Assembly (NCBI RefSeq): GCF_003991155.1
Contig: NZ_CP031293.1
From: Escherichia coli
GTDB taxonomy: Bacteria > Pseudomonadota > Gammaproteobacteria > Enterobacterales > Enterobacteriaceae
Length of the DNA stretch: 64,000 nt
Direction: 5' to 3' (one strand)
The stretch's first letter is position 1. Each line of letters starts with the position of its first letter. Made by a program: the position numbers and the translations under genes. The notes beneath the pieces were generated by a model. That model was not told where the DNA came from, searched no databases, and saw nothing but the letters and a program-made list of their open reading frames with translations. Positions 1,420 to 23,263 of the stretch are shown in pieces.

Positions 1420-1464
1420 GGAAGATGCAATACCCGAAGTAAGACAACCACTGGAGGATTAACC

Positions 1465-1890: not shown

Positions 1891-1891
1891 A

Positions 1892-2593: not shown

Positions 2594-2599
2594 GCAATC

Positions 2600-2872: not shown

Positions 2873-3058
2873 AAGTTATCCTTACAATGTGTTTATCGCT
2901 TGCTAAGCATCGAGTGCGACGGAAATGCCAGAATAGCACTCTCCTGCATACACGCACCGATAGCCACTTTTTTTCGCCCCCCAAATGTAGACCAGACGGG
3001 GGGCGAAAGGGAAGACTCCAGGTACGACAAATCAGGCGTTAAATCACGTTTTCTGGTC

Positions 3059-3649
3059 TTATTGCTGAAAAATTATACCAATATTGCTCTCACCCGCCTC
3101 ACGCAGGTCTGCCCTAAGGCCTTTTATCAGCTCGATATCGCGTTCTTCGCACTCAGCTAAAAGTCGGAATATTTCCCACTGAATGTCCCATTCTTGCTCT
3201 ACAGCTGGGTTTTCTTTGAGCTCTTCATCGCTCATTTCGCGACCAGCCTGAGTCATTTCCAGCATCGCAACGGTCGTGATGGAGGTCTTACTCACTTCCA
3301 CCGCGTGTTCGAGCGTTTCACCACTCAAACGCGAATGGACCAGTTCACTTAACGCCACGCATGCATCGATTGCCGGATAAACGCCGTACAGATCGAAATC
3401 ATCGGCTGAAGGAATCGCTTCTTCAAATTTCTCCAGTTGGCTGTCGAAATTTACTTTTGCGTCTTTGACGGTCAGCGTTTCCCAGATGAGATCGAGAATG
3501 CGGCGGTAAATCTGCCCATCACCAAAACCAGTTTGCTGACAGAATACGGCGTAATTAGGGTACATGCGTTCGCATAAGCAGGCCATAAAAGTGACGTGCT
3601 GCCAGCTTTCCAGGCGCTCCAGACGCAGATGAATTGGGTTTTGTAACAT
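3059..3649 (-). CDS. yjaG: DUF416 protein YjaG
   Basis: 196-aa ORF; conserved synteny between hupA and nfi. Confidence 0.88.
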   Translation of the reverse strand: MLQNPIHLRLERLESWQHVTFMACLCERMYPNYAVFCQQTGFGDGQIYRRILDLIWETLTVKDAKVNFDSQLEKFEEAIPSADDFDLYGVYPAIDACVALSELVHSRLSGETLEHAVEVSKTSITTVAMLEMTQAGREMSDEELKENPAVEQEWDIQWEIFRLLAECEERDIELIKGLRADLREAGESNIGIIFQQ

Positions 3650-3691
3650 GTTGAGTTCTCAAATACGGAAATTATCCGCAGTTTACCTGAA

Positions 3692-4363
3692 TTAGGGCTG
3701 ATTTGCTGTATAGCGCACGAACGCCGGACGTTCCGAGGCCACCGCGTCCGCCCAGCGCGTTGGCTCCGGCAGACGATAGCCTTTCATGCAGCGTTGTACC
3801 CACGCCAGCGCGCTGTCCACGCTAACCCGATGGCCGGTAGCGATAAACAATGGGTTACAGCGCGCTTTGCTGCGCCAGACCCAGGCCAGCTGCTCGCCTT
3901 TATCCATCAGTGGGGCCAGCGCGCCCGGTTCGCTGGAGAGCGGTTCGAATTTACCGCAGAGCCGTTTTTTCGCCACGCCTATCGTTGGCACATCCACCAA
4001 TAAGCCAAAATGGCTGGCGACACCAAGACGGCGAGGATGCGAGATCCCGTGACCATCGACAAACACTAAATCCGGCTTTTGTGACAGCATCTCCCACGCT
4101 GCCAGCAGCGCAGGATATTCGCGGAAGGAGAGAAAACCTGGAATATAAGGCATGGTGGTGGCGATGCGGGCCACTTTATACTCCACCAGCTCAAGCGAGG
4201 GGTATTTCAGCAGCACCATCGCCGCTCGCGTCACTTCTCCGCCCTGCTCAAATCCGACATCGGCTCCGGCGATCAGATCCGGTGGATCTTTATCGAGTCG
4301 ATCCTCGCGGATCACAGAAGAAGCCAGTTCGATTTGTTGAGCGCGTAATGACGCGAGATCCAT
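3692..4363 (-). CDS. nfi: Endonuclease V
   Basis: 223-aa ORF; synteny downstream of hemE; sequence consistent with E. coli Nfi. Confidence 0.93.
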
Positions 4364-4372
4364 AATCGCTCC

Positions 4373-5437
4373 TTAGCGGTGATACTGTTCAGACAAGCGA
4401 TGCACTGCCTCCACAAACACGCCAGCATGTTCTGGCGGCACATCCTGATGAATGCCGTGACCAAGGTTAAAGACATGACCTTCGCCGTGACCGAAACCGG
4501 CAAGTATAGTCGCAACTTCTTCTTCAATGCGGGCAGGCGGTGCGTACAGCATCGACGGATCCATATTACCCTGCAACGCGACTTTATTGCCCACGCGGCG
4601 GCGCGCATCGGCGATGTCCGTTGTCCAGTCGAGGCCCAGCGCATCGCAACCGGTTTCTGCCATCGCTTCCAGCCACTGTCCGCCACCTTTGGTAAACAGC
4701 GTGACCGGTACGCGGCGACCGTCGTTTTCACGCAGTAAACCATCAACAATTTTATGCATGTAATAGAGCGAGAACTGTTGATAATCGCGCCCGGTAAGCA
4801 CGCCGCCCCAGGTGTCGAAAATCATCACTGCCTGAGCACCGGCTTTAATCTGCGCATTCAGATACAAAGTGACGCTTTTCGCCAGTTTATCGAGTAGCGC
4901 GTGCAGCGCCTGCGGATCGGCATACATCATTTTTTTGATCACGGTGAAGGCTTTGCTGCTGCCGCCTTCCACCATGTAGGTCGCCAGCGTCCACGGGCTG
5001 CCAGAAAAACCAATCAGCGGCACTTCGCCTTTCAGTTCGCGACGAATGGTACGCACCGCGTTCATCACGTAACCCAGCTCATCTTCCGGGTCCGGAATTG
5101 GCAGTTTATCGACGTCGGCTTTGCAGGTGACTGGCGAGGTAAAACGCGGACCTTCTCCGGCTTCAAAATAGAGCCCTAACCCCATCGCGTCCGGCACGGT
5201 GAGGATATCGGAAAAGAGGATCGCCGCATCCAGCGGGTAGCGACGCAGCGGTTGCAAAGTCACTTCGCACGCCAGCTCGGCGTTTTTGCACAGCGACATA
5301 AAATCGCCCGCCTGGGCGCGCGTGGCTTTATATTCCGGTAGATAGCGACCCGCCTGGCGCATCATCCATACTGGAGTGACATCAACGGGCTGGCGCAGCA
5401 GCGCCCGCAGATAACGATCGTTTTTAAGTTCGGTCAT
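4373..5437 (-). CDS. hemE: Uroporphyrinogen decarboxylase
   Basis: 354-aa [39 protein letters not shown] (URO-D signature). Confidence 0.96.
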
Positions 5438-5476
5438 TTTGGCTGTTCCTTAGTGCGTCAGGCGGTCAGTGTATCA

Positions 5477-6250
5477 TCACTCATACTCTGCCCGACACAT
5501 CGCCACTGTATCTTCTATCAGACGGCGCGCTACGGTGCCGGGCGGCGGGAGTAACGGCAAATCGTCATAGCGATACCAGTTCGCCTCAAGCAATTCTTTC
5601 GGGTCGATCACGATCTCGCCGCTGTCATATTCCGCCATAAACGCGGTCATTAAAGACTGAGGAAACGGCCACGGCTGGGAAGTCACGTAACGCAAGTTTT
5701 TAACTTTAATTCCGCTCTCTTCCATCACTTCCCGCGCGACAGCCTGCTCGAGGGTTTCGCCCACTTCGACGAATCCGGCAAGTACCGTATGGACACCGTT
5801 ACGATGGCTGGTATGCTGGGCGAGGAGGATCGAATCATCGCGACGGATGGCAACAATAATGCAGGGGGCGATTTGCGGGTAGTAACGCTCACGGCAATGG
5901 CTGCACAGCATCGCCCATTCGGTTTTACTTGGATACATTTCATGCCCGCAGTAACCACAGTATTTATGCGATCGGTAAAACTCTGCCAGTTGTACGCCTC
6001 GTCCGGCCAGTTGAAACAGCCCAACATCGAGATCAATGACCTGACGTACCGACCCCATATCGTGACGCCGCTGCTGTTGTACTAACCAAACAGGTTCCCC
6101 CTGCCATTCGCCGATTTGTAGTGCGCGCTGACCCACAAGATCGAAATTTGCCGCTTCGCCATATGGCAATTCTCCCTTCGGCAACCATAATTTTTGTTCA
6201 TGGCTGACGACCCACCAGCCGTGATCTAATTTTTCAATTATACGATCCAT
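5477..6250 (-). CDS. nudC: NADH pyrophosphatase (Nudix)
   Basis: 257-aa ORF with zinc-ribbon CGYCGHEM...CSHC and a Nudix box. Confidence 0.94.
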
Positions 6251-10517: not shown

Positions 10518-11288
10518 ATGTTACGTATTGCGGACAAAACGTTTGATTCACATCTGTTTACCGGCACAGGGAAATTCGCCTCTTCACAACTGATGATGGA
10601 GGCGATCCGCGCTTCCGGCAGCCAGCTGGTGACACTGGCGATGAAACGCGTCAACTTGCGCCAGCACAACGACGCTATCCTCGAACCGCTTATCGCGGCG
10701 GGTGTGACCCTGCTGCCAAATACATCCGGGGCGAAAACAGCGGAAGAAGCCATTTTCGCTGCCCATCTGGCTCGTGAAGCGTTAGGCACAAACTGGCTAA
10801 AATTAGAGATTCACCCTGACGCCCGCTGGCTGTTGCCCGATCCCATCGAAACCCTGAAAGCTGCCGAAACGCTGGTACAACAGGGATTTGTCGTGCTGCC
10901 TTACTGCGGGGCCGATCCGGTATTGTGTAAACGTATGGAAGAAGTCGGCTGTGCAGCGGTGATGCCGCTCGGCGCGCCGATTGGCTCGAATCAGGGACTG
11001 GAAACCCGTGCCATGCTGGAGATTATTATCCAGCAAGCCACGGTTCCGGTGGTTGTCGATGCTGGCATCGGCGTTCCCAGCCATGCCGCGCAGGCGCTGG
11101 AAATGGGGGCCGACGCGGTGTTAGTGAATACGGCGATTGCCGTCGCGGACGATCCCGTCAACATGGCGAAGGCATTTCGTCTGGCAGTAGAAGCAGGCCT
11201 GCTGGCACGTCAGTCCGGACCGGGCAGCCGCAGTCATTTTGCTCATGCCACCAGCCCGCTGACCGGATTTCTGGAGGCATCTGCATGA
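10518..11288 (+). CDS. thiG: Thiazole synthase ThiG
   Basis: 256-aa protein starting [20 protein letters not shown]; ATG 1 nt after the thiS stop. Confidence 0.95.
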
Positions 11289-12418
11289 AAACCTTCAGCG
11301 ATCGCTGGCGACAACTGGACTGGGACGACATCCGCCTGCGTATCAACGGCAAAACGGCTGCTGACGTAGAGCGGGCGCTAAATGCCTCGCAACTCACCCG
11401 CGACGACATGATGGCATTGCTATCACCCGCCGCCAGTGGCTATCTGGAACCACTGGCCCAGCGAGCGCAGCGTCTGACCCGTCAGCGATTTGGCAACACA
11501 GTTAGTTTCTACGTCCCGCTTTATCTTTCCAATCTTTGCGCTAACGACTGCACGTACTGCGGATTTTCCATGAGCAATCGCATCAAGCGCAAAACACTGG
11601 ATGAAGCGGATATTGCCAGGGAAAGCGCCGCTATACGGGAGATGGGCTTTGAACATCTGCTTTTAGTCACTGGTGAACATCAGGCGAAAGTGGGGATGGA
11701 TTACTTTCGTCGTCATCTCCCTGCCCTGCGTGAACAGTTCTCTTCACTACAGATGGAAGTGCAACCGCTGGCGGAGGCGGAATATGCCGAGCTAAAACAG
11801 CTGGGTCTCGATGGCGTGATGGTTTATCAGGAGACATATCACGAGGCGACTTATGCCCGCCATCATCTGAAAGGCAAAAAACAGGACTTCTTCTGGCGGC
11901 TGGAAACGCCGGATCGGCTGGGCCGTGCGGGGATTGATAAGATAGGCCTCGGCGCGCTAATTGGCCTTTCCGACAGCTGGCGCGTTGACTGCTATATGGT
12001 TGCAGAACATTTGCTATGGCTGCAACAGCATTACTGGCAAAGCCGCTACTCTGTCTCCTTCCCACGCCTGCGTCCATGTACTGGCGGCATTGAGCCTGCG
12101 TCGATTATGGATGAACGCCAGTTAGTGCAAACCATCTGCGCCTTCCGGCTGCTTGCACCGGAGATTGAACTGTCACTCTCCACGCGGGAATCACCGTGGT
12201 TTCGCGATCGCGTGATTCCGCTGGCAATTAATAACGTCAGCGCTTTTTCGAAAACGCAGCCAGGTGGCTATGCCGACAATCACCCCGAGCTGGAACAGTT
12301 CTCACCACACGACGATCGCAGGCCGGAAGCGGTTGCTGCCGCGTTAACCGCTCAGGGTTTGCAGCCGGTATGGAAAGACTGGGACAGCTATCTGGGACGC
12401 GCCTCGCAAAGGCCATGA
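11285..12418 (+). CDS. thiH: 2-iminoacetate synthase ThiH (radical SAM tyrosine lyase)
   Basis: 377-aa ORF with the radical-SAM motif [10 protein letters not shown]; overlaps the thiG stop (ATGA). Confidence 0.96.
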
Positions 12419-12563: not shown

Positions 12564-12735
12564 CCTTTCTTAAAATAACGTCTCAGTACGCTATTTCATG
12601 ATTGCCCGCAAAAATATTCATTAATATTTCTATTGTTTTAACAAAGAAGGCACAAGGCTTTAATTGCAAAGCAAGATCGCCGTCAAAACAAGAGTGTGCA
12701 ATAACCGGTTATAATAATTCCACCCTCACCAAAAT

Positions 12736-13386
12736 ATGGTCCAGAACATCATGTCAGCTTACCTAAAAAAAGCGTTATCGATTCATAGTGATGAATTTCG
12801 CCCATACGGAAACGTAATTTCTGCAATAAATGTAGATTCATTGCTTAAATACCTTAAAGAGGAAATTTCTGTACCTGAGGATCAGGTGGCATATGTCAGA
12901 AGCGATGAGCGCTTAAAGCAATACCCCGCCGTGAGCGACATTCAGCGCCAAATCTACGGTGGAATGCCCGTTCAGGCTGGGTACGTTTGTGGGGTAAATA
13001 CCACCCAGGATGGCTTTGAATATCACCAGGGAAGTGAAGTCATTATCGCCGCCAGCGATTTTTTCCTGTTTTTAGGTAAACGAGAGTTGATGCAGGGTGA
13101 CACGTTTAATGGTGAACGTGCAGAGCCGTTTTTCATTCCGGCAAAATCGGTGATTGAACTTTATAGCACAACGCTACATTACTGCCCTATGAGTATCAAT
13201 GCACAACCTTTTAGTGCAGCGATTATTCTTCTTGATGGAACTAATGAAGATATTGATGGCAAGAATAAACCAACAATATTAAGCAAGCGAAATACCTGGT
13301 TTATCGCCCATGAAAGTTTCACTGAGCATCCTTGCCCATTATTAAAAGGGCCGCATCTTTGCGTGAATGATATTATTCATGGGTGA
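12736..13386 (+). CDS. Cupin-like protein of unknown function (ureidoglycolate-lyase-like N-terminal motif; possibly DUF4867-type)
   Basis: 216-aa ORF with no K-12 counterpart at this locus; AT-rich codon usage; motif EFRPYGNVI resembles the AllA-family N-terminus; alternative start at MSAYLKK (12751). Confidence 0.6.
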   Translation: MVQNIMSAYLKKALSIHSDEFRPYGNVISAINVDSLLKYLKEEISVPEDQVAYVRSDERLKQYPAVSDIQRQIYGGMPVQAGYVCGVNTTQDGFEYHQGSEVIIAASDFFLFLGKRELMQGDTFNGERAEPFFIPAKSVIELYSTTLHYCPMSINAQPFSAAIILLDGTNEDIDGKNKPTILSKRNTWFIAHESFTEHPCPLLKGPHLCVNDIIHG

Positions 13387-13390
13387 AAAT

Positions 13391-13410
13391 GGCGAAGATT
13401 TCTCTTCGCC
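13391..13410. terminator. Shared hairpin between convergent island genes
   Basis: GGCGAAGA-TTTC-TCTTCGCC perfect stem-loop in the 30-bp gap between the cupin-like gene stop (13386) and the hydrolase-like gene stop (13417). Confidence 0.5.
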
Positions 13411-13416
13411 TGTTCT

Positions 13417-16071
13417 TTACCCGGCAATTACCGCCACGCTGTCTTTTGTTCGCACGCGTGGTGGCATGGTCAGACCGCAGCGATCCCACTCATTCCCCTG
13501 CCATGCACTCGCAAAATAATAATGATTCGCTGCCGATGGGTAGACCACGACCGCCAGTTCATTACGCTTTTTTAGTAAAGACTGTGGCAAGGTGAAACGA
13601 TATTCCGGCCAGCCCTTTTCGGCAATTAACGTATCGTTAAGCCAGATAGCAACGCTTCCCTGCACTTGCGGTAAATAAAGCTCAATATCGTCGGTAATCG
13701 TCTCCAGCGCAAAGCGTAACTGATAATGTCCCGGACCACACCACGTCTCCATCCCCTGCTGCTCCCACCCTTTTGTTACCTCAACGGGTCGGGAAACGTT
13801 ATCAACCAGCAGTTGCCAGTGCTTATCCAGCACCACCTCGTGGCGACTTTCCACTACCTGCAATGAAAAGCAACGGGCCTGCCAGGGCTCGATTTGTAGC
13901 GGATAACTTCCCGTGAGATGCTCTTCCAGCACTGAAACCTCTCCCGTTGCAAGATGCCACTCCGACAACTGCCCACTGAGGCCCGGAAAATGTAGCCAGC
14001 CGTAGAGCGGGGTATCTCCGTCGTTAAATACGCTGACGTAACGCGATGTTTCATCCTGGGTAATTCGCGTCCAGACGGCAGTTTTCCGGGAGGGATAGTC
14101 AACAAAGGGGTGATCGTTTTTCAGCGTGTCGGCTAACGTGCTGCACTGCGGTTGCGCCTCAATCAGTTTTTGCAGCCTTTCGGTGAGAGAACGATCTTCA
14201 CCTTTTTCCTCGCTATATGCCGCAAGCTCGCCGGCGATCAGAAGCTGGCCACCAGCGGCGACAAAGTGCTCCAGTTGGCTCAGCGTGGCGGCTGATTTCA
14301 CCACCTTAACGTCCGCTAACAGAAGCGCAGGGAAATTCATGCCGTTAATGCGCGTTCCATCAGCCTGGAGCAAATTCTCTTCATCAATAAAGAAATATTC
14401 AAATCCCTGAGCGCTGAGTTGTTTTGCCCAATATTCGCCTGACTGCCCTTCGTTGCCATCCACGCCACAGTGCCAGAAAGTCCGTTTGGGATAGAGTACG
14501 CCAACATCAACGTACGGCTCTCCCTGCTCAAGAAATTCGGCAAGGCGACCAGATTCCTGAGCAAACCCAGCGTGGAAGGCGTACCAGGGCTGGAAGTTAA
14601 CGCCCGGCGCAAAATCAAAACGCGGGTTACTTAATACGTCGTCATTTGCCTCGCCATCCGTCAGCCAGAACGCGTGCATCAAAAATTGCCGCGCACCGAG
14701 GAGGTGATGGCGCAATGCCTGCAACCGGATGTCATGCAGTGAAATTTCCCACTGCCCGGCAGCAAAATGTGTGCATGGCTTCACCCGCGCATAATATTGC
14801 TCAACAATGCACCCTTTACGCCCATGAGCGCGCGCCACAGAGTCGCCAACCTTCGCCGCCATCTGCGGCTCGCTATTTCGCGAATCGACAGCCGTAATAT
14901 CCCGCCAGCCATCGAGAGCAAAGTAATCCATAGCAAAATTACACCGGTTATCTTCGGTGATGATTTTACTGGCGAAATTCCAGCTACTAACGTGACCTAA
15001 TACTTCATGACCACTTAGCTGTATTCCCCGCTGGTGCGCCCATTCTGACAACGTACCAAAAAAGGCCTGCATCGCCTGGCTGGAATAACAGGAAAGCAGC
15101 TCACAGCGCCGACGTGCGGTACGACTGCCAATGTCCATAACTAACGACATCAGGTTTTCTGCCAGGCAGTAAGGTGCCTGTTGCAATGCATCAACAAACC
15201 TTTTTTCATACATTAAGGAGGATTTGACCGCGCCAGTATGTTCATTCCATTGCCAGAAACAGGCGTGTGGCTGGTCGAAAAAGAGATACGCCACCGTCTT
15301 ACCAAAATGATCGCCAAAAGCGCGGGCGTAAGGTTCATAGCCGACACGAATAAAATTTTCTGCCGCTTCGGGCATCAGGTAATTAATCATCCGTGAGGTC
15401 AAGCAACGCGCCGCGGCAAAGAGCGTCACTACCGTTTCCGCACCCCAGGGCAGGTCGCTTCCCGTAAAGGTGACCTCAAATTCCTCTGTGGTTGCTTTGG
15501 TGATGCGGGCCAATGAAGAAACATCAACAATTTCATCTGCATTGCACTCCCCTGATGAAGAGGTGGCATACGCTGCGACAATTTCCCATTCATCCCACGC
15601 CGGTTTACCGCCAGCAAAAATCCACTCCATTCCACACTGCTGTAGCGCCTGCGCATCCGCAGAGCGGATCCCGGAAAGGTGACATGTCAGTACATCTGCA
15701 GACCGGCTGGACTGGCTCCAGAAAAGATGGCGCTCACGCAGCTCATCTCTCCCTTCAACGGTCCTTCCCCCGGCGTGCCCGGAAAGCCAGTTGTAATCAT
15801 CGTAGATGCCCATCATCAGCCCAATATTGGCAGCTTTATCAGCCGTGTAGCGACAGGCTGCCAGCCACTCCTCACTGAGATAACTCTCCAGCGGAAGACT
15901 CAGACGTGCGGCTATCTGAAATGAACCATACCCTCCCGCCTGCAGTTGCCTCAGTTGGCTGTCGATCTGCTTTTTGTCCGGAATGGTATGCCAGAACCAG
16001 TAGGTTGCAGGCAGGTGCCATACATCAGGATTTTTAAAGTTTTGGCGTGCCTGTGCTAACGAATCATTCAT
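13417..16071 (-). CDS. Large cytoplasmic hydrolase-like protein (putative glycoside hydrolase, family unassigned)
   Basis: Track ORF 13417..16104; start chosen at MNDSLAQARQ (ATG at 16071) because of the AGGGGGAAAGCC RBS 6 nt upstream; 884 aa; no signal peptide; C-terminal region looks beta-sandwich/carbohydrate-binding-like; no K-12 homolog recalled. Confidence 0.75.
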   Translation of the reverse strand: MNDSLAQARQNFKNPDVWHLPATYWFWHTIPDKKQIDSQLRQLQAGGYGSFQIAARLSLPLESYLSEEWLAACRYTADKAANIGLMMGIYDDYNWLSGHAGGRTVEGRDELRERHLFWSQSSRSADVLTCHLSGIRSADAQALQQCGMEWIFAGGKPAWDEWEIVAAYATSSSGECNADEIVDVSSLARITKATTEEFEVTFTGSDLPWGAETVVTLFAAARCLTSRMINYLMPEAAENFIRVGYEPYARAFGDHFGKTVAYLFFDQPHACFWQWNEHTGAVKSSLMYEKRFVDALQQAPYCLAENLMSLVMDIGSRTARRRCELLSCYSSQAMQAFFGTLSEWAHQRGIQLSGHEVLGHVSSWNFASKIITEDNRCNFAMDYFALDGWRDITAVDSRNSEPQMAAKVGDSVARAHGRKGCIVEQYYARVKPCTHFAAGQWEISLHDIRLQALRHHLLGARQFLMHAFWLTDGEANDDVLSNPRFDFAPGVNFQPWYAFHAGFAQESGRLAEFLEQGEPYVDVGVLYPKRTFWHCGVDGNEGQSGEYWAKQLSAQGFEYFFIDEENLLQADGTRINGMNFPALLLADVKVVKSAATLSQLEHFVAAGGQLLIAGELAAYSEEKGEDRSLTERLQKLIEAQPQCSTLADTLKNDHPFVDYPSRKTAVWTRITQDETSRYVSVFNDGDTPLYGWLHFPGLSGQLSEWHLATGEVSVLEEHLTGSYPLQIEPWQARCFSLQVVESRHEVVLDKHWQLLVDNVSRPVEVTKGWEQQGMETWCGPGHYQLRFALETITDDIELYLPQVQGSVAIWLNDTLIAEKGWPEYRFTLPQSLLKKRNELAVVVYPSAANHYYFASAWQGNEWDRCGLTMPPRVRTKDSVAVIAG

Positions 16072-17563
16072 GGCTTTCCCCCTTCTTAATCGGCGGAACA
16101 TCACAATGACAAATGTATGTCAAAATGGCATACAGCGCCGCGCCCACCAGCATCGCCACCACTACGCCAATATTTGCTGTCGCAAACACGCTGGTTTTGG
16201 TTTCTGCCGTCAGTAAGAAGCCGACCAGGTGAGCAATCCACGGATCGCCTGAGGTGATGGTTCCCATGCCGATAACCGATGCAACAAACAGCGATAATAA
16301 TGCCGTCCAGCGACCGTTACGCCCGCCAAGCCCCGCGGGCTGCGCCATATCAGTGTTCCAGTGCAAGCGTTTTTGCCGGGCAAAGTCGACAAGCTGGATT
16401 GCGCCCATCGATCCCAATACGACGGATACCGTTGCCAGAAAAGACTGAAAGGTTGCGAGGAACGAGTCAGAAACAAACAATAAGTAGAAGGCACCGAATG
16501 CGATAATGACCGCATTGATAGCAGTGGTGGTTGAACGACTGGCTGGAACGCCCATTGCCAGCAATGCGAGGCCTGAGCTGTAAACACCTGTAATGGCTGC
16601 CGCCAGCAGGGAGATGATGATCACGATTGAAAACGGCACATAGAACCAAAACGGCAGGAACGAGGTTAAGGCCGCAATCGGTTCGGACGCTGCTGCTCCG
16701 CTCAGTTCCGGGTTACTGTCGGCCAGCAGGGCACCTAAAATCAGCAGGATGGAAACCGGAAGCGAAATCCCAAGCGACGTCCAGAAAATCACTTTCCCGG
16801 CAGCGGTTTTGCGCGGCAGGTAACGGGCGAAATCACCGCCATAGTTGAGAAAGCCCAGCCCAACCATCGTCATTGCCATCACCATGCCGCCGATAAACGT
16901 TAAAAATCCGGCATCGGGAGCAGCACCCGCCTGCGACCAGTGAATATGTGGCAGGATCAGGATAATAAAGATGATGCTCATTCCGCCCGTTAACCATGCA
17001 ATATACTTTTCTACCTTCATGATGAGCTGGTGGCCGTAGATGGCAACGGACATAGTCAATACTAAGGTCACCACGAACCAGCCCAACAGGCACCCTAAGG
17101 TAGGGTGACCGTTTTCTGCTGCAAATACGGTTGGCCATAACCGGGCAAAGAGGGCGGCGCCAGTGGTCGAGGACAACGTAATAATGGTGATTTTCCAGCC
17201 CATATTGGAAATATAGGCAAATAAAGTGGGGATCTTATTCCCATGATAACCAAAGGCAAATCGGGTCTGCGTTAAGGTAGGCAGCCCGGTGCGTGGCCCA
17301 CCAACGGCCAGAACCCCCACCAGCGTGCTGGATAAAAAATAGCCCACGACACCGGCAACAATCGCCTGCCAGAGGCTTAACCCCAGTGAGTAAACATAAA
17401 TCCCATAGGTAATACCGAGGATGGATACATTCCATGAAAACCAGATCGGGAAAAGTCCGGCAGGCGAACCATAACGTTCGTTATCACTAACCGGGTTTAC
17501 CCCATTGGTTTCCACCTTCATCGTACCTGAAACATCAGATGGGTTCTGGGCTTGGCTCGTCAT
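16064..17563 (-). CDS. NCS1-family (nucleobase/nucleoside/vitamin:cation symporter) permease
   Basis: Start set at MTSQAQNPSD after a GAGAGGAAAT RBS within the longer track ORF; about 499 aa, highly hydrophobic with multiple predicted TM helices; resembles purine-cytosine/allantoin/hydantoin permeases. Confidence 0.8.
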   Translation of the reverse strand: MTSQAQNPSDVSGTMKVETNGVNPVSDNERYGSPAGLFPIWFSWNVSILGITYGIYVYSLGLSLWQAIVAGVVGYFLSSTLVGVLAVGGPRTGLPTLTQTRFAFGYHGNKIPTLFAYISNMGWKITIITLSSTTGAALFARLWPTVFAAENGHPTLGCLLGWFVVTLVLTMSVAIYGHQLIMKVEKYIAWLTGGMSIIFIILILPHIHWSQAGAAPDAGFLTFIGGMVMAMTMVGLGFLNYGGDFARYLPRKTAAGKVIFWTSLGISLPVSILLILGALLADSNPELSGAAASEPIAALTSFLPFWFYVPFSIVIIISLLAAAITGVYSSGLALLAMGVPASRSTTTAINAVIIAFGAFYLLFVSDSFLATFQSFLATVSVVLGSMGAIQLVDFARQKRLHWNTDMAQPAGLGGRNGRWTALLSLFVASVIGMGTITSGDPWIAHLVGFLLTAETKTSVFATANIGVVVAMLVGAALYAILTYICHCDVPPIKKGESHE

Positions 17564-17564
17564 T

Positions 17565-18782
17565 TTATTTCCTCTCATATTGAGCAAGACGTGATAGTAC
17601 GGCTTCATACTCAGGCATGTTCGATGCGCCTTCCCGCTCGACCGCCAGAGAAGCAAACGCAGAGGCAAATTTTGCTGCACTGAGCAACGGCTGGCCCTGC
17701 GCAATCGCCGCAGCAAACGCACCGTTAAACGCATCCCCCGCACCGGTGGTGTCAATACTTACTGCTTTTAACGCTGGAATATGGGTAAATTGTTCACCGT
17801 CATAAATCAGCGCCCCTTGAGAACCCATCGTAATAATGATGTTTTTTGCCCCCAGGGATTTTATGGTTTGCGCCGCTTCTTTCGCACTCTCGATATCATT
17901 AATCTCGACACCGGACATCAGCGACGCTTCTGTTTCATTCGGTGTCAGATAATCAACATATTGCAGGCATTCTTTTGCCTGGTCAGAATAAGGGGCTGGG
18001 TTAAGGATAGTTTTCACGCCCGACCGATGTGCCATATTTAGTGCCAGCGTGGTTGCTTCAAAGTTATTTTCCAACTGTGTCAAAAATATTTTGGCGTCCG
18101 TCAACTCACCCGCAATACTGGCAACTTCCGCTTCAGTGATATATTGATTGGCGCCAGAATAAATCGCGATCTTGTTTTCACCAGCAGGCTCCGAAACATA
18201 TATTATGGCGCTTCCTGTTTTATGCTCTTCGTCCTGGTAGAGGGTAAAGCTGCGGATATCGGATGAAGAGAGATGATCATGCGCCATCTGGCCGAAATGG
18301 TCGTTGCCAACTTTGCCGACGAAGTGTACCTGGACGGGACATTTGCTGGCTGCCATCGCCTGGTTTGCGCCCTTGCCGCCAGGTCCAATGATGGTATTGC
18401 TGGCAAGAATTGATTCGCCGCTTTTAGGGAAGCGATCAACTTTGGCAATAATATCGACATTAAAAGATCCTAATATACAAACTTTGCTTATCATTATTTT
18501 CCCTTTTTTGTTTGTCATCGAGTTTTTTCGCCAGTTGACCTGATTGAGGAACTTTTCAATAGAGGTACCAACGTTATTAACGGGCTGAGAATGGAAAATC
18601 CGACGCAATATTATTGCTCCGCCGTGACAACGCTCAACACCCCCTTGCTCCGCTAATAAATTTAAATCATTACGGATCGTTTCTTTACTGACAGAGAATA
18701 AGATGGCGAGTTGATTAACCGTAGCCCGCTCATGTTTATTCAAATATGCCAATATTTGACGTTGTCTTTCTTTCCCAAACAT
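17565..18782 (-). CDS. DeoR-type HTH domain fused to a ribokinase/PfkB-family carbohydrate kinase domain
   Basis: 405-aa ORF; N-terminal about 60 aa ERQRQILAYLNKHERATVNQLAILFSVSKETIRNDLNLLAEQGGVERCHGGAI is a DeoR-family HTH; C-terminal about 305 aa carries PfkB motifs GPGGKGANQA and DTTGAGDAFNGAF; GAGGTG RBS; stop 1 nt before the permease ATG. Confidence 0.8.
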   Translation of the reverse strand: MFGKERQRQILAYLNKHERATVNQLAILFSVSKETIRNDLNLLAEQGGVERCHGGAIILRRIFHSQPVNNVGTSIEKFLNQVNWRKNSMTNKKGKIMISKVCILGSFNVDIIAKVDRFPKSGESILASNTIIGPGGKGANQAMAASKCPVQVHFVGKVGNDHFGQMAHDHLSSSDIRSFTLYQDEEHKTGSAIIYVSEPAGENKIAIYSGANQYITEAEVASIAGELTDAKIFLTQLENNFEATTLALNMAHRSGVKTILNPAPYSDQAKECLQYVDYLTPNETEASLMSGVEINDIESAKEAAQTIKSLGAKNIIITMGSQGALIYDGEQFTHIPALKAVSIDTTGAGDAFNGAFAAAIAQGQPLLSAAKFASAFASLAVEREGASNMPEYEAVLSRLAQYERK

Positions 18783-18987
18783 GATTTCACCTCACGTAAC
18801 ATTTATATCTTTTGTAATTTTCTGATTCCATGAATCCTTTCACACTACCATCACGAAAACAAAAACAAACGGGAATTTTTGGAGGAAAGGTTTTTTTATT
18901 CAATGGGATAGTGAGAGGGGAATGTTGTTTTGAAAAAACACTCCCGAAAAATGCGTGGGAAAGCGCTTTCAATCGTAAACGGAATGC

Positions 18988-19019
18988 AAAAAAAAGCCAG
19001 TCAGTGTGACCTGACTGGC
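18988..19019 (-). terminator. rpoC rho-independent terminator
   Basis: GCCAGTCAG-GTCACA-CTGACTGGC hairpin followed by a T8 run on the minus strand, 20 nt downstream of the rpoC stop. Confidence 0.85.
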
Positions 19020-19039
19020 TTATTTCTTAAGAAGAGCGA

Positions 19040-22000
19040 TTACTCGTTATCAGAACCGCCCAGACCTGCGTTCAGCAGTTCTGCCAGGCTGGCAGATGCG
19101 TCTTCTGCAGTCACCTGCGGTGCAGCCGGAGCTTCACCCGCAGCACGGCGACGCATACGATCCTGGTGGTACGCGTAACCGGTACCTGCCGGGATCAGAC
19201 GACCCACGATAACGTTCTCTTTCAGGCCGCGCAGTTCGTCGCGTTTGCCCGCAACGGCTGCTTCGGTCAGCACGCGAGTGGTCTCCTGGAACGATGCCGC
19301 GGAGATGAAGGACTCGGTTGCCAGAGACGCTTTGGTGATACCCAGCAGATCGCGGGAGTAAGTTGCACCCACTTTGCCGTTCGCTTCCAGTTCGCGGTTT
19401 GCGATCTTGACGCGAGAGTATTCAACCTGTTCACCTTCCAGGAAGTCGGAGCTGCCCGCGTTAACGATGGTAGCTTTACGCAGCATCTGACGAACGATAA
19501 CTTCGATGTGTTTATCGTTAATCTTAACGCCCTGCAGACGGTATACGTCCTGTACTTCGTTAACGATGTAACGAGTCACAGCATGAACACCACGCAGACG
19601 CAGAATGTCGTGCGGCGCTTCCGGACCGTCGGAAATTACGTCACCACGTTCTACACGTTCACCTTCGAACACGTTGAGTTGACGCCATTTCGGAATCATC
19701 TCTTCGTACGGATCGCTACCGTCTACCGGGGTGATAACCAGACGACGTTTACCTTTGGTTTCTTTACCGAAGGAAACGATACCGCTGATTTCAGCCAGGA
19801 TTGCCGGCTCTTTCGGACGACGTGCTTCGAACAGGTCCGCAACGCGCGGCAGACCACCGGTGATGTCCTTGGTACCGCCGGATTCCTGCGGAATACGCGC
19901 CAGGGTGTCACCAGAGCTGATCTGTACGCCATCTTCCAGCTGAACAATCGCTTTACCCGGCAGGAAGTACTGCGCAGGCATATCGGTACCCGGGATCAGA
20001 ACATCGTTACCCTGAGCATCAACGATTTTCAGCGCCGGACGCAGATCTTTACCACCTGCGGTACGTTCTGCGGAATCCAGAACCACCAGCGAAGACAGAC
20101 CGGTCAATTCGTCGGTCTGACGAGTAATGGTCTGGCCGTCGATCATGTCAGTAAAGCGTACAAAACCGCTTACTTCGGTGATAACCGGCATGGTGTGCGG
20201 GTCCCAGTTTGCAACGGTTTCGCCGCCAGCAACCTGTTCGCCATCGCCTTTCGCCAGTACCGCACCGTAAGGTACTTTGTAGCTTTCTTTGGTACGACCG
20301 AATTCGTCGATCAGTTTCAGTTCGGTGTTACGGGAAGTGATAACCAGTTTACCGCTGGAGTTCACAACCGACTTCACGTTGCTGAGCTTGATGCTACCTT
20401 TGTTTTTCACCTGGATGCTGGATTCAGCAGCCGCACGAGATGCCGCACCACCGATGTGGAACGTACGCATGGTCAGCTGTGTACCCGGTTCACCGATGGA
20501 CTGTGCCGCGATAACACCGATTGCTTCACCTTTGTTGATGAGGTGGCCACGCGCCAGGTCACGACCGTAGCAGTGCGCACATACACCAAAGTCGGTGTCA
20601 CAAGATACAACAGAACGTACTTTAACCGCGTCGACAGAGTTCTCTTCCAGCAGGTCACACCACTGTTCGTGCAGCAGCGTGTTGCGCGGAACGAGGATAT
20701 CAGCAGTACCCGGCTTCAGAACGTCTTCAGCAGTTACACGACCCAATACGCGATCGCGCAGCGGCTCTTTAACGTCACCACCCTCGATAACCGGAGTCAT
20801 CATGATACCTTCATGGGTACCACAATCGTCTTCGGTAACCACCAGGTCCTGCGCCACGTCAACCAGACGACGAGTCAGGTAACCGGAGTTCGCAGTTTTC
20901 AGTGCGGTATCCGCCAGACCTTTACGAGCACCGTGGGTGGAGATGAAGTACTGGAGTACGTTCAGACCTTCACGGAAGTTCGCGGTGATTGGCGTTTCGA
21001 TGATGGAGCCATCCGGCTTCGCCATCAGACCACGCATACCAGCAAGCTGACGAATCTGTGCCGCAGAACCACGCGCACCGGAGTCGGCCATCATGTAGAT
21101 GCTGTTGAAGGAAACCTGCTTCTCTTCCTGACCGTCACGGTTAATAACGGTTTCAGTTTGCAGGTTATCCATCATCGCTTTGGATACACGATCGTTCGCC
21201 GCAGCCCAGATATCGATAACTTTGTTGTAGCGTTCGCCCGCAGTTACCAGACCAGACTGGAACTGCTCCTGAATTTCAGCAACTTCTGCTTCTGCCTCGG
21301 AGATGATTTCGTGTTTCTTCTCCGGGATGACCATGTCATCGATACCAACAGATGCACCAGAACGCGCTGCATAGGCGAAGCCGGTGTACATGATCTGGTC
21401 CGCAAAAATAACGGTCGGTTTCAGACCGAGAATGCGGTAGCAGGTGTTCAGCATTTTGGAGATTGCTTTCTTACCCAGCGCCTGGTTGACGATGGAGTAA
21501 GGCAGACCTTTCGGTACAATCATCCACAGAATGGCACGGCCAACGGTCGTATCTTTCAGGCTGGTTTTCGCTACTAATTCACCGTTAGCATCTTTTTCAT
21601 ACTCGGTGATACGCACTTTAACGCGCGCATGCAGAGAAGCCAGACCAGAGCGATACAGACGTTCTGCTTCTTTCGGGCCAGTCAGCACCATGCCTTCGCC
21701 TTTGGCGTTAACACAGTCGCGGGTCATGTAGTACAGACCCAGTACAACGTCCTGAGACGGAACGATGATTGGTTCGCCGTTCGCCGGGGACAGGATGTTG
21801 TTGGTAGACATCATCAGCGCACGCGCTTCCAGCTGGGCTTCCAGCGTCAGCGGTACGTGAACAGCCATCTGGTCACCATCGAAGTCGGCGTTATATGCCG
21901 CACAAACCAGCGGGTGCAGCTGGATAGCTTTACCTTCGATCAGTACCGGTTCAAATGCCTGGATACCCAGACGGTGCAGAGTCGGTGCACGGTTCAGCAG

Positions 22001-23263
22001 TACCGGGTGTTCGCGGATAACTTCGTCCAGGATATCCCAAACGACAGCTTCTTCGCGCTCAACCATTTTCTTCGCAGCTTTAATGGTGGTAGCAAGACCA
22101 CGCAGTTCCAGCTTGCCGTAGATGAACGGTTTGAACAGTTCCAGTGCCATTTTCTTCGGCAGACCGCACTGATGCAGACGCAGGTATGGACCTACGGTGA
22201 TTACAGAACGACCGGAGTAGTCAACACGCTTACCGAGCAGGTTCTGACGGAAACGACCCTGTTTACCTTTGATCATGTCGGCCAAAGATTTCAGAGGACG
22301 CTTGTTAGAACCAGTGATCGCACGACCGCGACGACCGTTATCCAGCAGGGCGTCTACCGCTTCCTGCAGCATACGTTTTTCGTTACGTACGATGATATCT
22401 GGCGCAGCCAGATCCAGCAGACGTTTCAGACGGTTGTTACGGTTAATGACGCGACGATACAGATCGTTCAGGTCAGAAGTCGCGAAACGACCACCATCCA
22501 GCGGAACCAGCGGACGCAGATCTGGCGGCAGTACCGGCAGAACGGTCAGGATCATCCACTCTGGTTTGTTACCAGACTGAACGAACGCTTCCAGCAGTTT
22601 GATACGCTTGGTCAGCTTTTTACGCTTGGTTTCGGAGTTGGTTTCGTTCAGCTCTTCACGCAGCTGTTCGCACTCTTGCTCCAGATCCATGCTCTTCAGC
22701 AGGGCCTGGATTGCTTCCGCACCCATCTTCGCGTCGAATTCGTCACCGAACTCTTCCAGCGCGTCCAGATACTGCTCTTCAGTCAGGATCTGCTGACGCT
22801 CCAGGTTGGTCATACCGCCTTCGATAACCACATAGGATTCGAAGTACAGTACGCGTTCGATATCGCGCAGCGGCATATCGAGCAGCAGGCCGATACGGGA
22901 CGGCAGCGATTTCAGGAACCAGATGTGCGCAGTCGGGGAAGCCAGTTCGATGTGGCCCATACGCTCACGGCGTACTTTAGTCTGGGTCACTTCAACACCG
23001 CACTTCTCACAGATGACGCCACGGTGTTTCAGGCGCTTGTACTTACCGCACAGGCACTCGTAATCTTTTACCGGCCCAAAGATACGGGCGCAGAAAAGGC
23101 CGTCACGTTCTGGTTTGAACGTACGGTAGTTGATGGTTTCCGGCTTTTTAACTTCACCGAAAGACCATGAACGGATCATGTCTGGCGAAGCCAGAGCAAT
23201 TTTGATCGCATCAAACTCTTCGGTTTTAGTCTGCGCTTTCAGAAACTTTAATAAATCTTTCAC
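19040..23263 (-). CDS. rpoC: RNA polymerase beta' subunit
   Basis: 1407-aa [36 protein letters not shown]...; NADFDGD catalytic motif. Confidence 0.99.

What the first reader, a model, noticed from the sequence alone, without database searches (positions are those of the whole stretch)
12736..18782. Compositional mosaic within island A
By eye, the cupin-like gene and the DeoR::kinase gene are AT-rich (many AAA/AAT/ATT codons, roughly 40 percent GC in sampled stretches), whereas the permease and the 884-aa gene are near or above the E. coli average. This suggests the island was assembled from parts with different histories, or that the regulator gene is under different constraints.
Basis: seen in the sequence. 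Interest (0 to 1): 0.25.

Follow-up and report, generated by a model that had tools for sequence, protein, structure and literature searches.

The report
Uneven GC in a sugar-salvage island
A rare four-gene E. coli island really does contain two AT-rich genes next to two genes of average composition, but the same pattern is inherited across related bacteria and looks stable, so it does not show that the island was recently stitched together.

Summary
GC/GC3 is DUF4867 cupin 0.423/0.387, DeoR-HTH::ribokinase 0.460/0.456, NCS1 permease 0.525/0.594 and the 884-aa protein 0.528/0.553 (chi-square p=6e-8). The E. coli background GC3 is 0.550 +/- 0.064.

The island spans window 12576-19036. It replaces yjaZ-sroH between thiH and rpoC in 49 of 5426 complete E. 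coli genomes.

The GC break lies at a boundary between evolutionary modules:
- The operator plus DeoR::PfkB "head" precedes three different cargo sets in Enterobacterales.
- The permease-hydrolase pair is conserved across Actinobacteria, Succinivibrionaceae and Bacillota.
- DUF4867 is optional.

The contrast is nevertheless not a fresh donor signature:
- It recurs in Salmonella, Superficieibacter, an unnamed enterobacterium and Serratia, although synonymous sites are saturated.
- It recurs in paralogous operons and in the native K-12 rbs operon.
- The permease-hydrolase pair tracks host GC elsewhere (GC3 0.28-0.98).
- The AT-rich genes show balanced GC/AT substitution flux.
- The island genes give the same tree among enterics.

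The likeliest cause is weaker GC-favouring constraint on the two genes nearest the promoters, possibly reinforced by regulatory or silencing DNA; this is inferred.

This is an ordinary phenomenon. The by-product is a conserved, uncharacterised gene set with a GH106-like hydrolase that probably salvages a ribose-containing glycoside.

The parts
12576..19036 (.). Accessory island (6.46 kb, GC 0.493) that replaces the 1.0-kb yjaZ-sroH segment of K-12 between thiH and rpoC
   Evidence: BLASTN against K-12 shows homology ending at window 12575 and resuming at 19037. The island interior is present in 49 of 5426 complete E. coli genomes, all >=99.9% identical and chromosomal. No integrase, IS element or flanking direct repeats were found.
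12576..12750 (+). AT-rich non-coding left edge (GC 0.366), presumed promoter region of the DUF4867 gene
   Evidence: Composition. The promoter role is inferred from position only.
12751..13386 (+). DUF4867 cupin gene (211 aa), the most AT-rich gene (GC 0.423, GC3 0.387)
   Evidence: PF16161 E=5e-54. Matches PDB 9gyy (B. megaterium DUF4867 protein SqvB) at E=7.5e-34, with the EYHxxSE and TTLH motifs identical. Composition.
13391..13410 (.). GC-rich hairpin between the convergent DUF4867 and 884-aa genes, a probable bidirectional terminator
   Evidence: Terminator-like site GGCGAAGATTTCTCTTCGCC. Function is inferred.
13417..16071 (-). 884-aa cytoplasmic GH106-like glycoside hydrolase candidate (GC 0.528, GC3 0.553)
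   Evidence: No Pfam or NCBIfam hit. A profile of the family matches the C-terminal half of GH106 rhamnosidases 6q2f and 5mwk. The AlphaFold model has pLDDT 92; the best Foldseek matches are 6q2f at 1.6e-40 and BT_0986 at 8e-36, followed by GH42 enzymes.
16064..17563 (-). NCS1-family permease (499 aa; GC 0.525, GC3 0.594). Its stop overlaps the 884-aa gene start by 8 nt.
   Evidence: PF02133 E=3e-27. It is 62-72% identical to permeases adjacent to GH884 homologues in Actinobacteria and Succinivibrionaceae.
17565..18782 (-). DeoR-HTH::PfkB ribokinase fusion gene (405 aa; GC 0.460, GC3 0.456), first gene of the operon, 1 nt from the permease start
   Evidence: PF08220 covers residues 6-59 and PF00294 covers residues 100-389. 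TIGR02152 ribokinase scores 313.5 bits against a cutoff of 299.65.
18486..18782 (-). HTH plus linker part (codons 1-99) of the regulator-kinase gene, its most AT-rich part (GC 0.397, GC3 0.408)
   Evidence: The block-wise GC3 gradient is seen in four lineages.
18828..18875 (-). Conserved operator/promoter motif TTCCCGTTTGTTTTTGTTTTCGTGATGGTAGTGTGAAAGGATTCATGG upstream of the operon
   Evidence: The core is invariant in E. coli, E. whittamii, Salmonella, L002, Superficieibacter and Serratia. Related TTCCGTTT/TTTGTTT repeats lie upstream of the paralogous head genes. Operator function is inferred.
18994..19021 (-). rpoC intrinsic terminator hairpin followed by a T-run, inside the island's right edge (edge GC 0.370)
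   Evidence: Conserved in L002 and Superficieibacter.
11285..12418 (+). thiH, left core flank (GC3 0.593)
19040..23263 (-). rpoC, right core flank (GC3 0.575)

Best explanation
**What it is.** The segment is a small chromosomal accessory island with two convergent transcription units. One is a tightly coupled operon: deoR-HTH::ribokinase, NCS1 permease, and an 884-aa GH106-like hydrolase. The other is a stand-alone DUF4867 cupin gene.

**Likely function (inferred).** The permease imports a ribose-containing glycoside. The hydrolase cleaves it in the cytoplasm. The kinase domain phosphorylates the released pentose. The kinase's fused HTH autoregulates the operon at the conserved upstream operator. 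DUF4867 may act as a ring or anomer isomerase, as RbsD does for ribose.

**The GC mosaic.** It is real and has a simple layout. The two genes nearest the promoters, at the two island edges, are AT-rich. The permease and hydrolase in the interior have host-typical composition. The break coincides with a boundary between evolutionary modules: a portable operator-plus-regulator-kinase head, a permease-hydrolase pair shared between phyla, and an optional cupin. The island is therefore modular in deep time.

**Why this is not a recent splice.** The contrast is an inherited, stationary property, not the unameliorated signature of joined DNAs from different donors. The AT-rich genes sit at the AT-biased mutational equilibrium. 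Their synonymous sites appear less constrained. The permease and hydrolase are held above that equilibrium, as core genes are. Selection for AT-rich regulatory or silencing DNA near the promoters may contribute; this was not tested.
For: **Shown**
- The heterogeneity is significant and falls into two classes.
- A single GC3 change-point falls at codons 464, 377, 415, 417 and 442 in E. coli, Salmonella, L002, Superficieibacter and Serratia. The gene boundary is at codon 405-407; permutation p<=0.01.
- The ribokinase gene has lower GC3 than its transporter and enzyme partners in 10 of 10 lineages and in all three cargo types. This holds although dS between the lineages is above 1.5-2.
- GC3 of the permease-hydrolase pair runs from 0.28-0.36 in Succinatimonas to 0.98 in Actinomadura, so the pair tracks the host.
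- The three operon genes give the same NJ topology among enterics.
- E. coli-Salmonella dS is 0.42-0.65 for all four island genes, against 0.90-2.6 for the flanks. E. coli-E. whittamii dS is 0.23-0.27 for the island and 0.25-0.32 for the flanks. The four genes have therefore travelled together.
- Polarised synonymous changes give a flux-equilibrium GC3 of 0.43 for the ribokinase gene (current 0.457) and 0.37 for DUF4867 (current 0.389). For NCS1 the values are 0.49 vs 0.595, and for the 884-aa gene 0.45 vs 0.553.
- In the E. coli-Salmonella comparison, dS is higher in the AT-rich genes (0.65 and 0.60) than in the other two (0.42 and 0.46). Their codon adaptation index (CAI) is lower.
- The native K-12 rbs operon has the same ranking: rbsC 0.618, rbsK 0.448, rbsD 0.493, rbsR 0.505.

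**Modularity**.

**Operator conservation**.

**Function context**
- A ribokinase lies next to the pair in Actinobacteria. In Bacillota the order is NCS1, GH, isochorismatase-family protein, ADP-ribosylglycohydrolase, ribokinase.
- The hydrolase fold is GH106-like.
- DUF4867 is a cupin metalloprotein proposed to be a mutarotase or ring isomerase (PMC11968277).
Against: - Generic class effects in the E. coli background are small: membrane proteins +0.018 GC3 (not significant) and short genes -0.018. 'Different constraints' therefore has to be specific to this family, and its cause is not identified.
- The flux test rests on 20-75 changes per gene and has wide bootstrap intervals, for example 0.29-0.58 for the ribokinase gene. 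Parsimony with a single outgroup is biased.
- The trees are NJ only.
- Serratia DUF4867 is much less AT-shifted (0.58 vs 0.64 for its partners) than the E. coli and Salmonella copies (0.36-0.39 vs 0.55-0.59). This could reflect either position or a separate history.
- The ribokinase gene in E. coli lies only at the 10th percentile of the background, which is not extreme.
- Substrate, operator function and H-NS involvement are all untested.
Confidence: 0.55

Rival explanations
1. Relic of separate donors. The regulator-kinase and DUF4867 genes came from AT-rich genomes and the permease-hydrolase pair from GC-richer ones. The GC contrast is what remains because amelioration is incomplete.
For: - The break coincides with module boundaries.
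- The nearest relatives of the permease-hydrolase pair outside Gammaproteobacteria are high-GC Actinobacteria.
- After Serratia, the next relatives of DUF4867 are Paenibacillus.
- The kinase domain is only 29-34% identical to the kinases in the actinobacterial clusters, whereas the permease is 62-72% identical.
- The closest sister pair, in Succinivibrionaceae, has no adjacent kinase.
Against: - The same contrast persists in five lineages with saturated dS.
- The pair takes on the host's GC everywhere else.
- The interior genes sit at the E. coli average, not above it.
- The AT-rich genes show no net AT-to-GC flux.
- The enteric gene trees are congruent.
- The native rbs operon shows an equal spread.
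Confidence: 0.15
2. AT-richness near the promoters is selected for regulation or silencing. The island edges and the first part of each transcription unit are kept AT-rich as binding DNA for H-NS-type silencers or for the operon's own regulator.
For: - Both non-coding edges are about 37% GC.
- GC3 rises along the regulator-kinase gene in E. coli, Salmonella, Dickeya and Aeromonas.
- DUF4867 is strongly AT-shifted where it is a stand-alone edge gene (E. coli, Salmonella). It is only mildly shifted where it is the last gene of the operon (Serratia).
Against: - DUF386, in mid-operon, is the most AT-rich gene of every DHDPS-type operon examined.
- Erwinia shows no 5' gradient.
- The kinase domain is also below its partners.
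- There are no binding or expression data.
Confidence: 0.2
3. Amino-acid composition alone. The proteins use different amino acids, and that dictates the GC3 differences.
For: GC3 expected from amino-acid content and background codon usage differs between the genes: NCS1 0.587, 884-aa 0.560, ribokinase 0.535, DUF4867 0.528.
Against: This accounts for at most about 0.06 of a 0.14-0.21 gap. Synonymous deficits of -0.142 and -0.080 remain.
Confidence: 0.04
4. Sampling noise. There is no real heterogeneity among the four genes.
For: None beyond the small size of DUF4867 (211 codons).
Against: Chi-square p=6e-8. The change-point permutation gives p<=0.005 in this window. The pattern is replicated in independent lineages.
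Confidence: 0.01

Closest known systems
E. coli rbsDACBKR ribose operon
   Same: It combines a transporter, a PfkB ribokinase, a small ring isomerase (RbsD pyranase) and a regulator. It shows the same GC3 ranking: permease 0.618 against kinase 0.448, pyranase 0.493 and regulator 0.505.
   Different: - The island kinase domain is only 35% identical to RbsK.
- Regulator and kinase are fused, with a DeoR HTH instead of the LacI-type RbsR.
- The transporter is NCS1, not ABC.
- The island has an extra 884-aa hydrolase, which implies a glycoside substrate, not free ribose.
Bacteroides ribose utilization systems (RUS; bioRxiv 10.1101/574913, found)
   Same: A conserved ribokinase core is combined with variable hydrolases and transporters to obtain ribose from different sources. 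This is a modular head-plus-cargo organisation.
   Different: Different phylum, regulators and transporter types, and no sequence relationship was tested. I read only the abstract of that paper.
GH106 alpha-L-rhamnosidases (BT_0986, PDB 5mqm/5mwk; Novosphingobium rhamnosidase, 6q2f)
   Same: They are the best structural matches to the 884-aa protein (Foldseek E 1e-40 to 1e-35). The C-terminal half also matches by sequence profile at E 1e-23.
   Different: - About 13% identity, with TM-score only 0.5-0.57.
- Pfam PF17132 does not hit the E. coli protein.
- The genomic partners (ribokinase, NCS1) do not suggest rhamnosides.
- Catalytic residues were not compared.
DUF4867 proteins SftX/SqvB of sulfoquinovose pathways (PMC11968277; PDB 9gyy)
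   Same: Same Pfam family. The match to 9gyy has E=7.5e-34, and the residues at the HxxxE and downstream His motifs are identical. They are likewise accessory, non-essential-looking members of a sugar catabolic cluster.
   Different: The pathway context here contains no sulfoglycolysis genes. The function of the family is still unresolved in that paper.
Amelioration model of horizontally acquired DNA (Lawrence and Ochman; from my own knowledge)
   Different: Here the atypical composition does not fade across lineages with saturated synonymous divergence. It shows no directional flux either. The model's central prediction is not met.
Canonical DeoR-family repressors (HTH_DeoR plus DeoRC sensor domain)
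   Same: N-terminal HTH_DeoR domain. The direct-repeat-like upstream motif is conserved with the gene.
   Different: The DeoRC effector domain is replaced by a complete PfkB kinase domain. The sensor would then be the enzyme itself; this is inferred.

Membership tests
Compositional mosaic caused by recent assembly from different donors | Statistically significant compositional heterogeneity among adjacent genes | tested here: met
   Chi-square 36.3, p=6e-8, with two classes.
Compositional mosaic caused by recent assembly from different donors | Gene trees of the parts are incongruent among close relatives | tested here: not met
   NJ trees of the ribokinase, NCS1 and 884-aa proteins give the same enteric topology. 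All four genes have similar dS between E. coli and Salmonella and between E. coli and E. whittamii.
Compositional mosaic caused by recent assembly from different donors | The atypical parts are ameliorating towards host composition (directional substitution flux) | tested here: not met
   GC-to-AT vs AT-to-GC counts are 20:20 for the ribokinase gene and 10:11 for DUF4867. Flux-equilibrium GC3 is 0.43 and 0.37, close to the current 0.457 and 0.389. Confidence intervals are wide.
Compositional mosaic caused by recent assembly from different donors | The pattern is specific to this island, not shared by orthologous clusters elsewhere | tested here: not met
   The same contrast and the same change-point occur in Salmonella, L002, Superficieibacter and Serratia.
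Classical integrative genomic island | Presence/absence polymorphism at a fixed chromosomal site | tested here: met
   Present in 49 of 5426 E. coli genomes, always between thiH and rpoC. K-12 has yjaZ-sroH at that site.
Classical integrative genomic island | Integrase or IS element, tRNA target, flanking direct repeats | tested here: not met
   Only four genes are annotated and none is a mobility gene. No flanking repeats were found. No RNA gene is present.
Ribokinase (PfkB family, TIGR02152 equivalog) | HMM score above the curated cutoff | tested here: met
   TIGR02152 scores 313.5 bits against a cutoff of 299.65. The second ribokinase model, NF008353, scores 277.8 against a cutoff of 341 and is not met.
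Ribokinase (PfkB family, TIGR02152 equivalog) | ATP-dependent phosphorylation of D-ribose | not testable with these tools
   This needs an enzyme assay. Paralogues at about 60% identity head DHDPS-DUF386-MFS operons, where the substrate may be another pentose.
DeoR-family transcription regulators | N-terminal HTH_DeoR domain | tested here: met
   PF08220 E=1e-17 over residues 6-59.
DeoR-family transcription regulators | C-terminal DeoRC sugar-phosphate sensor domain | tested here: not met
   No PF00455 hit. Residues 100-389 are PfkB.
NCS1 nucleobase:cation symporters | Pfam PF02133 above gathering score | tested here: met
   95.8 bits against 23.5. The TIGR00800 subfamily cutoff is not reached (89.4 against 353.1).
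Glycoside hydrolase family 106 | Sequence-profile membership (PF17132) | tested here: not met
   No Pfam hit for the E. coli protein. Some homologues have a precomputed PF17132 entry, marked faint for the Serratia copy.
Glycoside hydrolase family 106 | Shared overall fold with solved GH106 enzymes | tested here: met
   Foldseek E=1.6e-40 for 6q2f and 8e-36 for 5mqm, with a model of pLDDT 92.
Glycoside hydrolase family 106 | Conserved catalytic residues and rhamnosidase activity | not tested
   No residue-level superposition was done. Activity needs biochemistry.
DUF4867 (PF16161) cupin metalloproteins | Pfam score above cutoff and homology to the solved structure | tested here: met
   183 bits against 28.7. 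Matches 9gyy at E=7.5e-34, with the EYHxxSE and TTLH motifs aligned to identical residues.

The most novel reading that the evidence does not exclude
The permease plus 884-aa hydrolase pair, often accompanied by a ribokinase, would be an uncharacterised pathway for salvaging a ribosylated heterocycle or other pentosyl glycoside. It is shared by Actinobacteria, Succinivibrionaceae, Bacillota and a few Enterobacterales. The hydrolase would found a new glycoside hydrolase family related to GH106. The DeoR-HTH::PfkB fusions would be portable 'enzyme-as-sensor' regulator-kinase heads that have been plugged in front of at least three different pentose-releasing cargo sets.
Probability: 0.35. Interest if true: 0.5.

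Novelty: new member of a known kind. Interest (0 to 1): 0.22.

Why it matters
The main value is as a caution. A clear, statistically solid GC mosaic inside a small island would usually be read as evidence of patchwork origin. Here, comparison with related bacteria shows the pattern is inherited, stationary and matched by a native operon. Composition alone therefore cannot date or prove assembly.

There is also a lead for enzymology. The work delimits a conserved, unstudied gene set: an NCS1 permease, a confidently modelled GH106-like hydrolase with no Pfam family, a ribokinase and a DUF4867 cupin.

Finally, it documents a regulator-kinase fusion with a conserved operator that recurs in front of different cargo genes.

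Tried and rejected
- **Mobility signatures.** No integrase, IS element, tRNA or flanking repeats were found. The island probably moves by homologous recombination in the rpoC and thiH flanks; this is inferred.
- **Rfam.** The only hit was a sub-threshold Thr_leader match (25.7 bits, gathering score 55). It is the rpoC terminator hairpin.
- **Generic gene-class explanation.** Hydrophobicity does not correlate with GC3 in 185 background genes (r=0.05). Membrane-like proteins are only +0.018 and short genes only -0.018. I rejected this as a sufficient cause.
- **Amino-acid composition alone.** It explains no more than about 0.06 of the gap.
- **Non-orthologous displacement of the kinase.** It is plausible: 29-34% identity against 62-72% for the permease, and the Succinivibrionaceae sister pair has no kinase. 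It is not proven. Distances for the kinase correlate with those of its partners (r=0.79-0.91), and the island kinase is equally distant (35%) from K-12 RbsK.
- **Literature.** Searches for this cluster and for DeoR-ribokinase fusions found nothing specific.
- **Promoter scan.** It gave no more sites than shuffled sequence (11 against 8.1 +/- 2.7), so I assign no promoter.
- **Possible CRP half-site.** TGTGA-N6-TCATG lies within the conserved motif. I noted it by eye and did not test it.

Full report
**Setting**

The window is E. coli. The finding lies between thiH (11285-12418, +) and rpoC (19040-23263, -).

RefSeq annotation of an identical genome lists four genes:
- a DUF4867 protein (12751-13386, +);
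- a hypothetical 884-aa protein (13417-16071, -);
- a purine-cytosine (NCS1) permease (16064-17563, -);
- 'ribokinase' (17565-18782, -).

Pfam shows that the last protein is a fusion of a DeoR-type HTH (residues 6-59) with a complete PfkB kinase domain (residues 100-389). It passes the TIGR02152 ribokinase cutoff.

Comparison with K-12 places the island borders at 12576 and 19036. The 6.46-kb segment replaces the 1.0-kb yjaZ-sroH segment.

The island interior is found in 49 of 5426 complete E. coli genomes. All copies are at least 99.9% identical, all are chromosomal and all are complete. One carrier is IAI39.

There are no mobility genes, tRNA genes or flanking repeats.

**The observation**

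Per-gene GC/GC3:

| Gene | GC | GC3 |
|---|---|---|
| DUF4867 | 0.423 | 0.387 |
| Regulator-kinase | 0.460 | 0.456 |
| NCS1 permease | 0.525 | 0.594 |
| 884-aa protein | 0.528 | 0.553 |
| thiH | 0.555 | 0.593 |
| rpoC | 0.539 | 0.575 |

- Heterogeneity of GC3 among the four genes gives chi-square 36.3 (p=6e-8). The genes fall into two internally homogeneous classes.
- The background was 185 ORFs from the window and from 200 kb of the same strain fetched (GC3 0.550 +/- 0.064). DUF4867 lies at the 2nd percentile and the regulator-kinase at the 10th. The other two genes are average.
- The 0.138 step between the adjacent regulator-kinase and permease genes is reached by 1 of 66 operon-like neighbour pairs.
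- Amino-acid content accounts for up to about 0.06 of the gap. Synonymous deficits of -0.142 (DUF4867) and -0.080 (regulator-kinase) remain. Within the regulator-kinase, the HTH and linker part has a deficit of -0.127 and the kinase part -0.065.
- The non-coding island edges are about 37% GC. The HTH part is 39.7% and the kinase part 48.0%.

The observation therefore stands, with two corrections. 'About 40%' applies only to DUF4867 and the 5' quarter of the regulator gene. The interior genes are average, not above average.

**The same island elsewhere**

- **Salmonella enterica** carries the four genes at the same site and in the same arrangement. The 884-aa protein is 89% identical.
- **An unnamed enterobacterial metagenome contig (L002) and Superficieibacter electus (L004/L013)** carry the three-gene operon next to rpoC. 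In place of DUF4867 they have a PTS/GH4/GntR/SIS cluster.
- **Serratia fonticola** has all four genes co-directional at an unrelated site.
- **E. whittamii, an Escherichia cryptic-clade strain and E. albertii** also carry the island.

GC3 in each lineage:

| Lineage | Regulator-kinase | Permease | Hydrolase |
|---|---|---|---|
| E. coli | 0.456 | 0.594 | 0.553 |
| Salmonella | 0.387 | 0.588 | 0.546 |
| L002 | 0.379 | 0.571 | 0.489 |
| Superficieibacter | 0.375 | 0.542 | 0.479 |
| Serratia | 0.515 | 0.643 | 0.644 |

An unsupervised single change-point in the GC3 series of the operon falls at codons 464, 377, 415, 417 and 442. The gene boundary is at codon 405-407. Permutation gives p<=0.01 in every case.

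Synonymous divergence between these lineages is saturated (dS above 1.5-2), except for E. coli-Salmonella and within Escherichia.

**Do the genes share a history?**

Among enterics they do.
- NJ trees of the regulator-kinase, permease and hydrolase all give (Serratia,((L002,Superficieibacter),(Salmonella,Escherichia))).
- E. coli-Salmonella dS is 0.65, 0.42, 0.46 and 0.60 for the four genes. The flanking core genes give 0.90-2.6 (rsd, thiC, thiE, thiF, thiG, thiH). The island was therefore exchanged between the two genera after they split, and as a unit.
- E. coli-E. whittamii dS is 0.23-0.27 for the island and 0.25-0.32 for the flanks. This is consistent with long residence in Escherichia.

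At greater depth the parts separate.
- A scan of one genome per species found 57 loci with a homologue of the hydrolase.
- In 43 of these loci a permease that is 61-72% identical lies immediately upstream of the hydrolase homologue (35-37% in Bacillota). They include Streptomyces, Bifidobacterium, Aeromicrobium, Mycetocola, Amycolatopsis and Succinivibrionaceae.
- The two proteins' trees agree on an Enterobacterales clade sister to Succinivibrionaceae, within an Actinobacteria-rich tree.
- In Succinatimonas the pair stands alone among housekeeping genes. In Bifidobacterium it follows a plain ribokinase and a LacI-type regulator.
- The kinases in those clusters lack an HTH. They are 29-34% identical to the island's kinase domain, which is 35% identical to K-12 RbsK.
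- Fusions about 60% identical to the island's are common in Enterobacterales and Aeromonas. There they head DHDPS-DUF386-MFS operons (Rahnella, Dickeya, Erwinia, Aeromonas) or an ABC transporter plus ADP-ribosylglycohydrolase operon (S. bongori).
- A 48-nt motif upstream of the island operon (18828-18875) has a core that is invariant in all six island-type lineages. Related TTCCGTTT/TTTGTTT repeats lie upstream of the paralogous heads.

The island is therefore built from three modules: a portable operator-plus-regulator-kinase head, a permease-hydrolase pair shared between phyla, and an optional cupin. The compositional break lies at the head/cargo joint.

**Is the composition a donor relic?**

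Five results argue against it.
1. The contrast persists in lineages whose synonymous sites have turned over completely.
2. The permease-hydrolase pair adopts host composition wherever it lives. GC3 is 0.28-0.36 in Succinatimonas (39% GC) and 0.98 in Actinomadura (74% GC). Amelioration therefore does operate on this timescale.
3. The head gene is below its transporter and enzyme partners in 10 of 10 lineages and in all three cargo types. The small accessory gene DUF386 is the lowest in each DHDPS-type operon.
4. Synonymous changes on the E. coli and E. whittamii branches were polarised with Salmonella. The counts of GC-to-AT against AT-to-GC changes are below.

   | Gene | GC-to-AT : AT-to-GC |
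   |---|---|
   | Regulator-kinase | 20:20 |
   | DUF4867 | 10:11 |
   | Permease | 38:23 |
   | Hydrolase | 45:29 |
   | thiH | 23:13 |
   | thiG | 20:4 |
   | thiF | 14:3 |
   | rpoC | 31:15 |

   The implied equilibrium GC3 is 0.43 and 0.37 for the two AT-rich genes, against current values of 0.457 and 0.389. It lies below the current value for all the other genes. The AT-rich genes are therefore stationary, not climbing towards host GC. The intervals are wide.
5. The native K-12 rbs operon has the same ranking and an equal spread: rbsC 0.618, rbsA/B 0.57, rbsR 0.505, rbsD 0.493, rbsK 0.448. In addition, a core gene in this window (35407-36435, MurB by its N-terminus, from my own knowledge) has GC3 0.376.

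**What maintains the contrast?**

This is not settled.
- Generic class effects are weak in the background.
- In the E. coli-Salmonella comparison the AT-rich genes have higher dS and lower CAI. This fits weaker GC-favouring constraint at their synonymous sites.
- The layout also fits selection for AT-rich regulatory or silencing DNA. The edges are AT-rich. GC3 rises along the head gene. DUF4867 is strongly AT-shifted only where it is a stand-alone edge gene. No binding data exist, and mid-operon DUF386 and Erwinia are counter-examples.

**Function (inferred)**

- The 884-aa protein has no Pfam family. Its AlphaFold model is confident (pLDDT 92). It most resembles GH106 rhamnosidases and then GH42 enzymes.
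- It has no called signal peptide. Its gene overlaps the permease gene by 8 nt, and the permease start lies 1 nt after the kinase stop.
- A ribokinase accompanies the pair in Actinobacteria and Bacillota. In one Bacillota locus the order is NCS1, GH, isochorismatase-family protein, ADP-ribosylglycohydrolase, ribokinase.
- DUF4867 is a cupin metalloprotein of unresolved function, proposed to be a mutarotase or ring isomerase (PMC11968277). The island protein matches the solved structure 9gyy at E=7.5e-34, and the residues at the metal-site motifs are identical.

The most economical reading has four steps: uptake of a ribose-containing glycoside, cytoplasmic cleavage, phosphorylation of the pentose, and autoregulation by the kinase-HTH fusion.

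**Verdict**

The mosaic is real and coincides with true module boundaries. It is an inherited, apparently stationary feature of a co-travelling gene set, not evidence that this island was recently assembled. As a compositional finding it is ordinary. The conserved permease-hydrolase-kinase gene set and the portable regulator-kinase head are modestly interesting leads.

Noticed in passing
window 35407-36435 (-): A core gene has GC3 0.376, lower than any island gene. Its N-terminus [15 protein letters not shown] identifies it as MurB from my own knowledge. Low GC3 alone does not mark foreign DNA in this genome.
   Followed up: partly
L073 (K-12 rbsDACBKR, 352-6220): The native ribose operon shows the same within-operon GC3 ranking as the island: rbsC 0.618, rbsA/B 0.57, rbsR 0.505, rbsD 0.493, rbsK 0.448.
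   Followed up: yes
window 12576-19036; L002 10885-16458; L004 10938-16513; L068 1078-2078: The rpoC-thiH gap holds different cargo in different bacteria. K-12 has yjaZ plus sroH. This strain has the four-gene island. L002 and Superficieibacter have the island operon plus a PTS/GH4/GntR/SIS cluster.
   Followed up: partly
window 12751-18782 vs L005 5290-11321: E. coli-Salmonella synonymous divergence of the island genes (0.42-0.65) is about half that of the flanking thi and rsd genes (0.90-2.6). This implies exchange of the island between the genera after they split. thiH dS of 2.57 is unusually high.
   Followed up: partly
L029 5652-12517: A Bacillota relative has the order NCS1, GH884-like, isochorismatase-family protein, ADP-ribosylglycohydrolase, ribokinase. 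The S. bongori DeoR::ribokinase operon (L010 7001-13904) also encodes an ADP-ribosylglycohydrolase. Both hint at a ribosylated heterocycle as substrate.
   Followed up: no
window 18828-18875 (-): Within the conserved upstream motif, TGTGAAAGGATTCATGG resembles a CRP-type TGTGA-N6-TCACA site. I noted it by eye and did not test it.
   Followed up: no
window 18940-19028: A weak Rfam Thr_leader hit (25.7 bits, gathering score 55, E=0.15) coincides with the rpoC terminator hairpin at 18994-19021. It is not a leader.
   Followed up: yes
L043 7926-12874 (Rhizobium lusitanum): Rhizobial homologues of the 884-aa protein lack the NCS1 partner. They sit next to an MGH1-like/GH63-like hydrolase and ABC transporter genes, so the family is used in other contexts too.
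   Followed up: no
L009 9256-9909; L074 9401-9778; L075 9255-9746; L076 9221-9703: The small DUF386 gene is the most AT-rich gene in every DHDPS-DUF386-MFS operon headed by the paralogous regulator-kinase. This parallels DUF4867 in the island.
   Followed up: partly
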